From Eledone cirrhosa (Eukaryota): a stretch of 64,000 bases of DNA. The DNA lies in the NCBI GenBank assembly GCA_964016885.1, contig OZ024748.1:21824001-21888000 (forward strand), written 5' to 3'. Made by a program: the position numbers and the translations under genes. Below the pieces are notes generated by a model. It had not been told where the DNA came from. It did not search any database and saw nothing but the letters and a program-made list of their open reading frames with translations. Below are positions 59,039 to 63,890 of this stretch, one piece after another; the stretch's first letter is position 1; every line of letters starts with the position of its first letter.

Positions 59039-59990
59039 TCACCCTCCCCATCTCTCTCTATGATAAGTAAATGGGATCCCACGTGCTGGCCGTCCCACGG
59101 ACCCGGCGGGCAGAATGGAGAAGGCGTTTCTGCGGAGGATGGTAAGAGAGATGCGCTGGAAGAGCCATTCCATCTCGCGAGGCTCACATCTGCGGCTAGC
59201 CAGCTCAGCGCCTATGGTGTTAAGTAGGGAGGTAGTCCTAGGGCCAAGGACGCCAGAAGTCTCTACTGCTAGGGGCTTGACTGCAAACCTGTCGGAGAGC
59301 GACTGATACTTGAAGAGTTTACTTACTTTCCTTAGCCCGAAGTGCAACAGAACCTGGGTTAGTCGCAGACTGCACCGGTTGCCGCTGGAGAATGTTGTCG
59401 CTGCAAGTGTCATCTCAGACGAGGGGTTTACTACCGCGGAACGGGAAGATGGTCATGCCGCCTGGCCTTTTGCGGTCTCTTCGGTCCAGCCCCACCGGCT
59501 GACTGGGAGGGGAAGCCTGCAGCATCCAAGCCATGCTTTATGACCTCGTTGAGAACAGCATGGCGTGGAAGGCGGCCGGCACTGTAGCGACACGAAATCG
59601 GGTGGAGGCCGAAAGAGTCCACGGTGGTTCCGCAGCGACATTTGTGTGGCTCGCAGATCCGGAGGCCAAGCCCCAGGAAACCCACAATGCTCAGGCTATC
59701 ATTGTTCAGCTGCATGCCAGTTGGGAAGGAGGATAAGGCATGGAGCTAGGCACTACTGTGGGGTTGCGAGACGGCGCGAAAATATACAAAGTGGTGCTGG
59801 TCGAGCTGGCGCGCTAGCCTGTCTGAGGCCAGGTTGCACTGGATGGCATCCCAAATACTCTGGAGGGGGGGGGGGGGGGGTTGACGTTAGTAGGGGGAGA
59901 AGGAGAAGGGACGTCTACTGGGCTAAGACAAAGCCGGTTCCACGTCTCGCAGGCGGCCTCACGTTCCTCGATCACAGTGAGTTCCATTCT
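59039..59990 (-). mobile_element. Decayed CRE-like non-LTR retrotransposon, C-terminal zinc-knuckle plus restriction-like endonuclease region
   Basis: Across frames: LGLRICEPHKCRCGTTVDSFGLHPISC...RH...; GLDRRDRKRPGGMTIFPF...LV*D (RPDG and WD motifs mutated); KY...PLAVETSGVLG...WLFQRISLTILRRNAFSIL. Confidence 0.8.
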
Positions 59991-60062
59991 GTTTAGGAGA
60001 ACCTTATGCATAACTTTTCTTAATTCCGTTAGTCTTCAACTATTTTGGCTCCTGCTGTAGTT

Positions 60063-60135
60063 GCCCCCATAGCTCAGGGGTTAGAGCACCGGTCTTGTAA
60101 ACCGGAAGTCGTGAGTTCGAACCTCGCTGGAGGCT
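60063..60135 (+). tRNA. tRNA-Thr(TGT)
   Basis: GCCCCCATAGCTCAGGGGTTAGAGCACCGGTCTTGTAAACCGGAAGTCGTGAGTTCGAACCTCGCTGGAGGCT; cloverleaf with anticodon stem CCGGT/ACCGG; one C:A mismatch in the acceptor stem; T5 run ~25 nt downstream. Confidence 0.85.
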
Positions 60136-62457
60136 ATCAAGATACTTCAAAAAAAAATTATTTTTGAGAAATAAGCACATTAATAACATTGAATGCAGCA
60201 CCGCAGATGGTGGATTATATGTATACACATCAGAACTCATGTAAACACATTCATTCATATGTGAACCCAAGAGCTTCGCACGTATATCTGTATGTACACA
60301 TTGCTTTAATATTTTACTGGTTTCAGTTAGACTACAGCCATGCTGTGGCGCAACCCAGATACAGCCATACATATCACATACGGTATATTGCCAAATATAC
60401 TATACATACATTCATGTATACATCGCTATTTCAGAGCACCAATACTATACCTAATCTTTGCTGGACCGGCAACCGCTCTGTGTAATCAACTCCTGATTAT
60501 TACTGAAATTCTATAAGAATCCTGCTTCTATAATTTTCGGCAGGCAGGGGAGTGCATGGTTTTCATAAACGCCAAACAGCGAGAAACAGACAGTCAGCCC
60601 CTCTCCCAGCCTTTGCCAAAAATAAGTAAGTGACATAGTCATTACTTTAAAACTGATAGCGAATGGTCTTCTAAATGTTTTTAATTAAACATACGGTATA
60701 TTGCCAAATATACTATACATACATTCATATATATATATGTATATATATATATATATATATATATATATATATATATATATATATATATATATATATATAT
60801 ATATATATATATATCACATATCTAAATAATCAATGAGTAAATTTATAAACATATTTACGCAGTCTCGGTTACTCCTATACTGTATATATACAGTAATATG
60901 TTCATCATGCACACACACACACACAACACCAGTTCTTAATATACAATCTTAGATCTTACCTTAGATTTTTTTCTCTGGATTGTTTGCTACTCAGCAAATG
61001 TGACTCTTTTTTATGAAAAGTTGAAATACATTAACACTAAATATTAAATGTGCAGTCATTTTTATAACATTACCTGTTCTTTTAGATCAGCCGGAAAATT
61101 AAGTCGCTACCATGAGCCAAATACTCTCGTGGTATTTATATTAAAGTTTAAAGAATAAAGTTTAAAAGAAAAGGTAAATAGTGATACTGAAAGAGAAGAG
61201 GCGAGTGTCCACTGCATAACTGCATACCACCTCTACTTCCTATTACGGTTTAAATGAAACTACTTGTCATTATGTACAATGTTTAAAGAACAATAAATCT
61301 AATCTATATGCACACTTGATCTAAAGATATTTTACTTGCTTGACAATTGCCAGTTAATTCCCCTTCATTAAGTAAACGTGTCATTGAAACGGGACTTGTA
61401 CTACACATTCCTTATTATATTAGAAGATGGTACTGCTTGGTGTAATAGTTGCTTTTAATGAGGTTGAGAGTGGCACAGCGATTTCTATATTAGCTTCTGT
61501 TTCCGAATAAGGCAATTATTATAAAGGAAAAAGAGAAAAAGTGAAATATCAAAGAGATTTTCAAATATATACCGAAAGAAGGATACATACAAATAAACAT
61601 CATATACATACAAATAAACATCACACACACACACGCGCGAGCCCCCCCCCCCACACATTTACAGATAGGTTATTTAGTAGTTTTGTTGATTGCTAATGAG
61701 CAAATCGATACAGAAGTCAGGCCTACCACATCGATAAAGGCTTCGAACCAATAATCTGTGAAACATATGTAACGCTTGATATGCAACAAACGCATTTTTA
61801 AATTGAAATCTCGTTATCTCATATATATATAGATAGATATGAAAAGATTCAGAACCCTGAGTACTCTGGTGGGTTATGGTCCACCTGTTATTTTATACAC
61901 CCTCTCTGATATATGTATATATATATATATATAAATGGCGTAGACATACAATACAACAGGAGGAAACGATAGCACCACTGACGATGTTGCAGATGTGCAA
62001 CGAAAGACTTATGATAAACTATATATATGTGTTTGTGTCTATATTGTATCTGTATTATTTTTGACCGTCGGTCAGTCAATGGCAACATTGAGGCCCGAGT
62101 AAGTTAGATTACCGATATAAAAGACACAGAAGCGAAAAGCGAAAACCAACTAAACAGTGAGTGTGTTCTGTTATTAATTCTGGCAATATTACACAAATAT
62201 GACCCTCCCCAAGTATAACAATATATATATATATATATATATATATATATATATATATATATATATATATATATATATATATATATATATATATATATAT
62301 ATATATATATATATATATATATATATATATATATATATATATATATATATATATATATATATAACGAAGGAGTTGTGGTAAATAGCCGTCGAAACGGCTT
62401 GAGCTCTGCCGTCGAGGTCATACATTTTCCTATATATATATATAAAGAGGAAAAAGT

Positions 62458-62586
62458 GGAAGAAGACACGCATATCCAATAACCCCGCCACAAGAGGCGT
62501 TAGTTTGCTTGTAATAATTTTTGAGGCAAGCCAACAACACATTCACAGCGTTGCCGCCAGTGATAGCGGCTCTAAGATGCTGGAAT
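62458..62586 (-). mobile_element. CRE-like retrotransposon 3' remnant
   Basis: - strand FQHLRAAITGGNAVNVLLACLKNY; shares 3' flank with 55830-55900. Confidence 0.55.
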
Positions 62587-62805
62587 ATTAAAATTAATCA
62601 AACTAAAATAAAGATAATAATATGACTACTAAGACTAATAAAAATAGAAGAAGATACGTAATACCAAAAGATTATACATACACATTTCTGTTCTAACATA
62701 TATACATACACATACGTGTGTGATGTTTGTGTGTACGCATCTGAACGAATGTGCGTTATCGTGTGTTCTTACATATTAAAAAAAAAATATGGAGCGGGTA
62801 TTAGA

Positions 62806-62878
62806 AGCCCCCAGCGAGGTTCGAACTCACGACTTCTGGTTTACAAGACCAGTACTCTAACCACTGAGCTATGGAGGC
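62806..62878 (-). tRNA. tRNA-Thr(TGT)
   Basis: Reverse complement GCCTCCATAGCTCAGTGGTTAGAGTACTGGTCTTGTAAACCAGAAGTCGTGAGTTCGAACCTCGCTGGGGGCT; fully paired stems (with G:U); poly-T terminator at 62778-62787. Confidence 0.92.
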
Positions 62879-63299
62879 AACTACGACAAGCGTTAACATA
62901 TTTGAAGACTAACTGAATTAAGAAAAGTAATGTACAAGGTTCTCCTAAACAGAATGGAACCCACTGTGATCGAGGAACGTGAGGCAGCATGCGAGACGTG
63001 GAACCGGCTTGGACTTAGCCCAGTAGACGTCCCTTCTCCTTTTCCCCCTGCCAACGTTAAGTCTTCCCCAGAGTATTTGGGATGCCATCCAGTGCAAGCA
63101 GCTCTCAGACAGGTTTCAGCATATTGCTTTAATATTTCTTAAAATACACCCGAAATGCCTTTTAATGCAGGTATCCACCAGCGCCGTCTATAAACCAGGT
63201 TTAAAACGATATGAATTAGATGACTAAGTGAAGACTAAATGGATTCAGAGAAATGATGTAAGACAGCTATATTAAAATAGCTGTGTTCTTGTATAATAT

Positions 63300-63890
63300 A
63301 CGTTCCCCCAGCCTGTGGCGTTCGAGGCGTTTGGAGGAGCTGGGTCGCTGACAACGAAGTCTTGTCATCATTGGCGGCTCACCATACCGAGGTATCATTT
63401 GATACTCCTGAGGGTGCTTGTTTGTTCCAGCACCTTAGCCTCGCTATCACTCGCGGTATGGCTACCAGTGTTGGCTTGCCTAAAAAGGTATTAGAGGGAG
63501 GCTTCCAAGTGTATCAAAGGTATCATGTGATGCCCGTGAGGGTGTTTGGTTTTTCCAGCACCTTAGTCTCGCTATCACTCGCAGTAAGGCTACCAGTGTG
63601 TCGGGTTGCATCAAAAGGTATTAGAGGGAGGCTTCCAAGTGTATCAAAGGTATCATGTGATGCCCGTGAGGGTGTTTGGTTTTTCCAGCACCTTAGTCTC
63701 GCTATCACTCGCAGTAAGGCTACCAGTGTGTTGGCTTGCCTAAAAAGGTATTAGAGGGAGGCTTCCAAGTGTATCAAAGGTATCATGTGATGCCCGTGAG
63801 GGTGTTTGGTTTTTCCAGCACCTTAGTCTCGCTATCACTCGCAGTAAGGTTACCAGTGTGTCGGGTTGCATCAAAAGGTATTAGAGGAAG
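63300..63890 (+). mobile_element. CRE-like 3' remnant whose end is amplified as 130-bp tandem repeats
   Basis: PVAFEAFGGAG...EGACLFQHLSLAITRGMATSV; TTAGAGG recurs at 63491, 63621, 63751 and 63881. Confidence 0.7.

What the first reader, a model, noticed from the sequence alone, without database searches (positions are those of the whole stretch)
59039..63890. Two inverted tRNA-Thr(TGT) genes, each with CRE-like retrotransposon remains immediately upstream: possible tRNA-associated RLE retroelement
Seen: the tRNAs at 60063(+) and 62878(-) share ~250 bp of homologous upstream flank (59817-60062 vs 62879-63113, inverted). In both cases CRE-like C-terminal coding sequence (PxAxExxG ... FQxLSLAIxRGNA) lies further upstream, pointing away from the tRNA. 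Two more CRE-like 3' remnants (55830-56060, 62458-62586) lie within 5 kb, and I saw none in the first 55 kb. Known: RLE-type non-LTR elements are often site-specific (CRE/SLACS at spliced-leader arrays, R2 at rDNA), and tRNA-adjacent targeting is known for Dictyostelium TRE, Tx1-clade Dewa and yeast Ty3. Inference: a CRE lineage targeting tRNA upstream regions, or a tRNA+CRE cassette being amplified as a unit. I do not know of either in molluscs.
Basis: partly seen in the sequence, partly recalled or inferred. Interest (0 to 1): 0.72.

Follow-up and report, generated by a model that had tools for sequence, protein, structure and literature searches.

The report
CRE retrotransposons crowd near tRNA genes
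The two tRNA genes share one retrotransposon junction, likely copied by a local duplication, but across this animal genome remains of the same retrotransposon group lie about five times more often beside sampled tRNA genes than in control DNA, likely because they insert into open chromatin there.

Summary
Both tRNA-Thr(TGT) genes are real. About 190 nt of the shared 245-nt flank is itself the 5'-truncated end of a dispersed CRE-type LINE (family A). Both copies break at the same base, 57 nt from the tRNA, so the pair is one junction, duplicated. A third local tRNA lies just past the window. The other remnants belong to an older family (B). No tRNA lies within 1.5 kb of 58 other CRE copies, so there is no strict targeting.

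From the tRNA side there is a signal. CRE remnants lie within 1.5 kb of 23 of 83 other tRNA loci (16 of 58 in a validation set; 21 of 75 after merging duplicates), against 15 of 259 control windows (risk ratio 4.8, 95% CI 2.6-8.9). Controls include sites 30-40 kb away (4 of 60) and Pol II first coding exons (2 of 28). Distance and orientation vary freely, and one SINE is also enriched about twofold. Best reading: a loose preference for accessible chromatin near Pol III genes (inferred). The scan had already noted a CRE scar in a tRNA array of this genome; my look-ups and paper searches found no report of the enrichment.

The parts
58901..60005 (-). CRE-type LINE, family A, 5'-truncated copy: post-RT region, CCHC zinc knuckle, RLE (PD..D motif mutated to PG..D), 3' UTR; carries stops and frameshifts
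   Evidence: 84% over 1109 nt to L005; tblastn to full-length RT-RLE relatives 45-54%; 1884 first-look candidates genome-wide
60006..60062 (.). 57-nt unique spacer between the CRE-A 5' break and tRNA copy 1
   Evidence: matches only copy 2 in the genome search; 45 of 57 identical to copy 2
60063..60135 (+). tRNA-Thr(TGT) copy 1; C4-A69 mismatch in the acceptor stem, possibly decaying
62806..62878 (-). tRNA-Thr(TGT) copy 2; T-run terminator about 18 nt downstream
62879..62935 (.). 57-nt spacer, paralogue of 60006-60062
62936..63113 (+). 178-nt stub of the same CRE-A insertion, same 5' break base as copy 1
   Evidence: 89.9% to copy 1, two shared bases absent from 26 of 26 other copies
63117..63374 (.). 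Flank shared with a third tRNA-Thr just beyond the window (L061 668-740, minus), which lacks the 238-nt spacer plus CRE-A piece
   Evidence: 94.6% over 258 nt
63308..63891 (+). CRE family B 3' remnant whose end is expanded into a 130-nt tandem repeat (3.9 copies, 63390-63891)
62458..62587 (-). CRE family B 3' remnant, 219 nt downstream of tRNA copy 2, same strand
55829..56029 (-). CRE family B 3' remnant
   Evidence: 948 first-look candidates genome-wide
58684..58868 (-). tRNA-like SINE with an 18-nt target-site duplication; this family is itself about 2x enriched near tRNA genes

Best explanation
The inverted pair shares one 5'-truncated CRE junction 57 nt upstream of a tRNA-Thr gene, likely a single insertion later duplicated locally, and CRE-type LINEs in this genome likely have a loose preference for accessible chromatin within about 1-1.5 kb of tRNA genes. 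Shown: one shared junction, a third local tRNA copy, about fivefold enrichment at sampled tRNA loci that has fallen to background 30-40 kb away, and no fixed side, distance or orientation. Inferred: the RT-RLE protein integrates by target-primed reverse transcription with little sequence specificity and finds nucleosome-poor DNA around Pol III genes easier to nick. Most copies land elsewhere. The degenerate N-terminal PHD-like finger could steer this; that is untested.
For: Same break base in both copies while 23 of 29 other family copies continue 5' with family sequence, by my reading; spacer unique to the pair; two private shared bases, and the pair groups at 83/80; the three local tRNAs share bases not seen in the 11 other Thr loci printed. 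Enrichment: discovery 7 of 25, validation 16 of 58, against fixed positions 6 of 120, matched 30-40 kb 4 of 60, Pol II first coding exons 2 of 28, SINE heads 2 of 22, tRNA-Ala-like repeat 1 of 29. Holds after merging duplicated loci (21 of 75), for each family (A 14 of 83 vs 7 of 259; B 7 of 83 vs 5 of 259) and with foreign proteins as detector (17 of 83 vs 10 of 259). Geometry of 27 near fragments: 8 upstream-opposite, 8 downstream-opposite, 6 downstream-same, 5 upstream-same. Total repeat cover is not raised near tRNAs (33% vs 39%).
Against: The two validation subsets differ (10 of 20 vs 6 of 38, p=0.012; the weaker alone gives p=0.037 against controls). Thr loci themselves show little (1 of 11 in discovery, 0 of 5 in the 10-kb set). 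One SINE is also enriched (48 of 83 vs 59 of 208), so the effect is not CRE-only. CRE copies cluster somewhat with each other (7 of 55, p=0.08). Control windows are not random draws and come three to a stretch. The Pol II control is small, centred on coding exons rather than mapped starts (tRNA vs Pol II p=0.034). All copies examined are old and broken, so insertion bias cannot be separated directly from later retention. No chromatin data were seen. Tree support for the pair is below the starred threshold.
Confidence: 0.55

Rival explanations
1. CRE prefers any open or promoter chromatin, or its own older copies, and tRNA genes are only one class of hot spot.
Against: Pol II first-exon windows are at background for CRE (2 of 28) and for the SINE (8 of 28); self-clustering (13%) is weaker than the tRNA association (28%) and not significant.
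Confidence: 0.2
2. Insertion is random, but old fragments survive longer next to functional tRNA genes because deletions there are selected against.
For: All copies seen are old (A about 85%, B about 70% pairwise); the tRNA loci were picked by intact A and B boxes.
Against: Total repeat cover and most other repeat clusters are not raised near tRNAs; constrained Pol II exons show no excess; the younger family A is enriched at least as much as B.
Confidence: 0.1
3. A CRE sublineage is tethered to Pol III factors as TRE5 is, inserting about 50 nt upstream with its 5' end to the tRNA; this locus is a true target site.
For: The 57-nt gap lies inside the 37-90 nt range given for TRE5-A (PMC5006619, passages); at L192 a CRE-A 5' end joins the first bases of a tRNA-Glu head to head.
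Against: Only one junction here; only 1 of 27 near fragments elsewhere lies within 170 nt of a tRNA; no side or strand bias; 0 of 58 CRE copies near a tRNA.
Confidence: 0.07
4. The enrichment is a sampling artefact and only the local duplication is real.
For: 83 loci only, uneven subsets, non-random controls; L321 was already known to lie near a CRE-B hit before it was fetched.
Against: Replicated in loci fetched after the first signal, against five kinds of control and with an independent detector.
Confidence: 0.08

Closest known systems
CRE clade non-LTR retrotransposons (SLACS, CRE1/2, CZAR; CRE-type repeats of cephalopods)
   Same: Single RT plus C-terminal CCHC and RLE layout; a homologue is labelled 'Retrotransposable element SLACS protein' and others are Octopus sinensis RT proteins; CRE types are reported almost only in cephalopods among molluscs (PMC10294476, passages).
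   Different: Tens of thousands of dispersed fragments (estimate 50,000, range 24,000-92,000) without a sequence-specific target; a degenerate N-terminal PHD-like finger.
Dictyostelium TRE5 and TRE3
   Same: Non-LTR elements beside tRNA genes; the 57-nt gap here resembles TRE5.
   Different: TREs encode an APE endonuclease and are strictly placed about 50 nt upstream or about 100 nt downstream (PMC5006619, passages); here an RLE element, both sides, either strand, over more than 1 kb, and only a small minority of copies.
Yeast Ty1
   Same: A broad window of about 1 kb near Pol III genes (PMC5911963, passages).
   Different: Ty1 is an LTR element with an integrase, targets upstream only and binds Pol III subunits; no tether is shown here.
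tRNA-specific RLE elements NeSL-1_TV, LIN15_SM, LIN25_SM
   Same: RLE non-LTR elements associated with tRNA genes (PMC4640811, passages).
   Different: Those are specific for one tRNA isotype; this is a weak positional bias across Glu, Arg, Leu, Ser, Ala, Gly, Lys and Thr loci.

Membership tests
CRE-clade RLE non-LTR retrotransposon | Reverse transcriptase domain | tested here: met
   RVT_1 in family copy L064, 32.1 bits, above cut-off; the window copies are truncated 3' of it
CRE-clade RLE non-LTR retrotransposon | C-terminal CCHC knuckle and PD..D restriction-like endonuclease | tested here: met
   CxCx11Cx9H and RPDG...D...AVETSG motifs in family copies and, decayed, in copy 1; motif naming is from my own knowledge, Pfam gave no hit for this part
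CRE-clade RLE non-LTR retrotransposon | RT phylogeny groups with SLACS/CRE rather than R2, R4, NeSL or HERO | tested here: inconclusive
   No tree with reference elements was built; support is a SLACS-labelled homologue and only weak similarity of a relative to R2 (E 6e-7)
CRE-clade RLE non-LTR retrotransposon | Sequence-specific target such as spliced-leader exons | tested here: not met
   3' flanks of 27 family A and 30 family B copies show no common target; typical of the trypanosomatid members, not known to me to define the whole clade
tRNA-targeted retroelement of TRE type | Most copies lie next to tRNA genes | tested here: not met
   0 of 29 A and 0 of 29 B copies elsewhere have a tRNA within 1.5 kb
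tRNA-targeted retroelement of TRE type | Fixed side, distance and orientation | tested here: not met
   27 fragments split 8/8/6/5 over the four geometries, gaps from overlap to 1442 nt
tRNA-targeted retroelement of TRE type | Independent junctions at several isotypes | tested here: met
   Different CRE pieces near Glu, Arg, Leu, Ser, Ala, Gly, Lys and Thr genes; not met for the pair in the window
tRNA-targeted retroelement of TRE type | Element protein binds Pol III transcription factors | not testable with these tools
   No intact copy and no host factor was examined

The most novel reading that the evidence does not exclude
CRE-type RLE retrotransposons of this animal, which carry a PHD-like finger at the front of their protein, are guided to chromatin around Pol III genes over a window of about a kilobase on both sides: a Ty1-like, chromatin-based tRNA-gene preference in an RLE element that has lost sequence specificity, and one that seeds passenger fragments in tRNA arrays.
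Probability: 0.25. Interest if true: 0.72.

Novelty: new variant of a known kind. Interest (0 to 1): 0.45.

Why it matters
RLE elements are the textbook sequence-specific retrotransposons. A high-copy CRE family that has no sequence target but keeps a measurable bias toward tRNA genes would show an intermediate state between strict targeting and random insertion, in a large genome where the safe-haven argument made for compact genomes is weak. The claim can be tested at once on any cephalopod assembly. The locus itself is ordinary.

Tried and rejected
Independent insertion at both tRNAs: rejected (same break base, homologous unique spacer, private shared bases). The shared flank as a genuine conserved tRNA upstream element: rejected, mostly CRE-A. 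Family B as a tRNA-headed SINE: no sign; homology between copies runs 150-530 nt upstream through RLE coding remains. The three family B remnants as recent local duplicates: not supported, 71-77% identical, like the family. A regional (tens of kb) effect: not supported, 4 of 60 windows at 30-40 kb. A general repeat pile-up near tRNAs: not supported. A 14-nt likeness between the CRE-A 5' UTR and antisense tRNA-Thr: reached by 55 of 2000 shuffles for one tRNA chosen after the fact, set aside. The planned matched controls covered 20 of 40 loci, and controls at 300 kb were not obtained. About 26 dispersed tRNA-Ala(GGC)-like hits share flanks and were treated as a repeat and used as a control, not as tRNA genes. 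Paper searches found no report of CRE enrichment near tRNA genes; the library lacks most subscription journals and Repbase reports. No supplements were read; those of PMC10294476 may hold CRE family detail.

Full report
Observation. ARAGORN and Rfam find two tRNA-Thr(TGT) genes in the window, at 60063-60135(+) and 62806-62878(-). They and their upstream flanks are inverted paralogues, 318 nt at 85.8%. RLE-type coding remains lie upstream of each, and three more 3' remnants lie at 55829-56029, 62458-62587 and 63308-63887. None was found in the first 55 kb.

What the flank is. A genome search with 59700-60062 gave 1884 first-look candidates, 40 scored. The matches end at about window position 60005. 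Most of those copies continue further 5' with shared family sequence, whereas both window copies switch at that base to a 57-nt spacer and the tRNA. The flank is therefore the 5'-truncated end of a LINE, family A. Longer copies encode RT and CCHC and PD..D motifs (motif names from my knowledge). Their relatives include a SLACS-labelled protein and Octopus sinensis RT proteins. A near full-length broken copy of about 2.9 kb lies in L328. Its 5' part has 685 candidates, and another copy shows a weak PHD match (E 0.058; a relative scores 4e-7). CRE assignment rests on homology, not on a reference tree.

The pair is one event. The spacer matches only these two places. The CRE-A parts are 89.9% identical against a family mean of 85.4% (maximum 92.5%). 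They share two bases found in 0 of 26 other copies, and group at 83/80, which is moderate (three near-duplicate loci were left out). A third tRNA-Thr lies 0.7 kb past the window end. It shares 258 nt at 94.6% with copy 2 but lacks the 238-nt spacer and CRE-A piece. The simplest order is insertion, inverted duplication, loss of most of CRE-A from copy 2, tandem duplication, and a deletion in copy 3. Conversion of copy 2 from copy 1 is also possible. Both orders need one junction only. The other remnants are an older family B (948 candidates) and are 71-77% identical to each other, like unrelated family members.

From the CRE side there is no targeting: 0 of 29 family A and 0 of 29 family B loci elsewhere hold a tRNA within 1.5 kb, and 3' flanks are diverse. 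Ten fragments in 600 kb of control DNA imply roughly 50,000 fragments in the genome (24,000-92,000).

From the tRNA side there is a signal. I collected tRNA loci by similarity, Rfam and box patterns, kept one index gene per cluster, and scored a CRE fragment within 1.5 kb by blastn with natural copies plus tblastn. The first 25 loci gave 7. The 58 fetched afterwards gave 16 (10 of 20 and 6 of 38). Five of the 83 were not called by ARAGORN; all five are negative and were kept. Controls: fixed positions 6 of 120 windows, SINE heads 2 of 22, a tRNA-Ala-like repeat 1 of 29, sites 30-40 kb from 20 of the validation tRNAs 4 of 60, first coding exons of Ras and DnaJ genes 2 of 28. Overall 23 of 83 against 15 of 259, Fisher p=4e-7. 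Merging loci with shared flanks gives 21 of 75, risk ratio 4.8, 95% CI 2.6-8.9. A detector made only of foreign proteins gives 17 of 83 against 10 of 259.

Limits of that signal. The two validation subsets differ (p=0.012), Thr loci show little, control windows come three to a stretch and are not random draws, and the Pol II control is small and not centred on mapped starts. Total repeat cover near tRNAs is not higher (33% vs 39%). Among 40 repeat clusters the clear gains are CRE-A (about 3-5x) and one SINE (about 2-3x) (SINE 48 of 83 vs 59 of 208). CRE copies also cluster somewhat with each other (7 of 55, p=0.08).

Geometry. The 27 fragments within 1.5 kb of their nearest tRNA split 8, 8, 6 and 5 over the four side-and-strand classes, with gaps from overlap to 1442 nt (array units and duplicated loci are included in this count). 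One case, L192, joins a CRE-A 5' end to the first bases of a tRNA-Glu through a short microhomology. A 1.34-kb tRNA-Glu, tRNA-Asp, CRE-A unit is tandemly repeated, with 88 units listed and the CRE piece present in 7 of 7 array loci scanned.

Mechanism. Shown: one duplicated junction here, and a local, unoriented, roughly fivefold excess near sampled tRNA genes. Inferred: target-primed insertion with little sequence specificity, biased to accessible DNA around Pol III genes. A role for the PHD-like finger is untested, and two earlier unchecked notes argue that it lacks methyl-reading residues. Retention bias, general open-chromatin preference, strict tethering and sampling error are the rivals.

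Known systems. CRE types are already reported in cephalopods (PMC10294476, passages). Strict tRNA targeting is known for TRE5 and TRE3 (PMC5006619, passages; PMC3706591, passages), a 1-kb upstream window for Ty1 (PMC5911963, passages), and isotype-specific RLE elements for NeSL-1_TV, LIN15_SM and LIN25_SM (PMC4640811, passages). A human tRNA tandem repeat flanked by LTR elements is described in PMC4041453 (abstract and section list only). Eight paper searches and three look-ups in the scan's notes showed no report of the enrichment.

Verdict. The locus as flagged is an ordinary local duplication. The by-product, a loose association of CRE remnants with tRNA genes, is probably real and worth a whole-genome test. 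Interest 0.45.

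Noticed in passing
G000:C3:277.24-277.40 Mb (L201-L218): Tandem array of a 1.34-kb unit holding tRNA-Glu(TTC), tRNA-Asp(GTC) and a 385-nt CRE-A RLE fragment; 88 units listed.
   Followed up: partly
L192 1031-1566 (G000:C2:191.79 Mb): A CRE-A 5' end replaces the first bases of a tRNA-Glu(TTC), head to head, at a short microhomology.
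   Followed up: partly
L328 191-3310 (G000:C3:127.505 Mb): A near full-length broken CRE-A with PHD-like N-terminus starts about 170-190 nt downstream of a tRNA-Glu, same strand.
   Followed up: partly
L159-L188, L105-L115: Dozens of dispersed tRNA-Ala(GGC)-like sequences with near-identical AT-rich flanks on both sides; probably carried inside a young mobile element. GGC is an unusual Ala anticodon in eukaryotes (own knowledge).
   Followed up: no
window 58684-58868: SINE with an 18-nt target-site duplication; the family lies near 48 of 83 tRNA loci vs 59 of 208 controls.
   Followed up: partly
window 63390-63891: The 3' end of a CRE-B remnant is amplified as a 130-nt tandem repeat, 3.9 copies, 93% matches.
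   Followed up: no
window 57716-58552: 29-nt minisatellite (29 copies) that appears to grow from the head region of a SINE at 57598-57746.
   Followed up: no
L002-L030, 3' ends: CRE-A copies end in several alternative shared tails, suggesting subfamilies that captured 3' flanks.
   Followed up: no
L241, L245, L320, L283, L196, L197, L133, L357: A younger CRE-B subfamily (86-91% identity), seen at four tRNA loci and two control stretches.
   Followed up: partly
window 53195-53591: Near-perfect 194-nt palindrome (99%, 9-nt loop), MITE-like.
   Followed up: no
window 24417-27160 and 32345-39244: Two arrays of a 31-nt satellite (88 and 223 copies).
   Followed up: no
G000:C4:79.56, 128.67, 297.73 Mb; C3:199.37 Mb; C1:141.2, 441.19 Mb: Large single-isotype tRNA arrays (Lys-CTT, Arg-ACG, Cys-GCA, Gly-GCC, Ser) with 1-2.5 kb units.
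   Followed up: no
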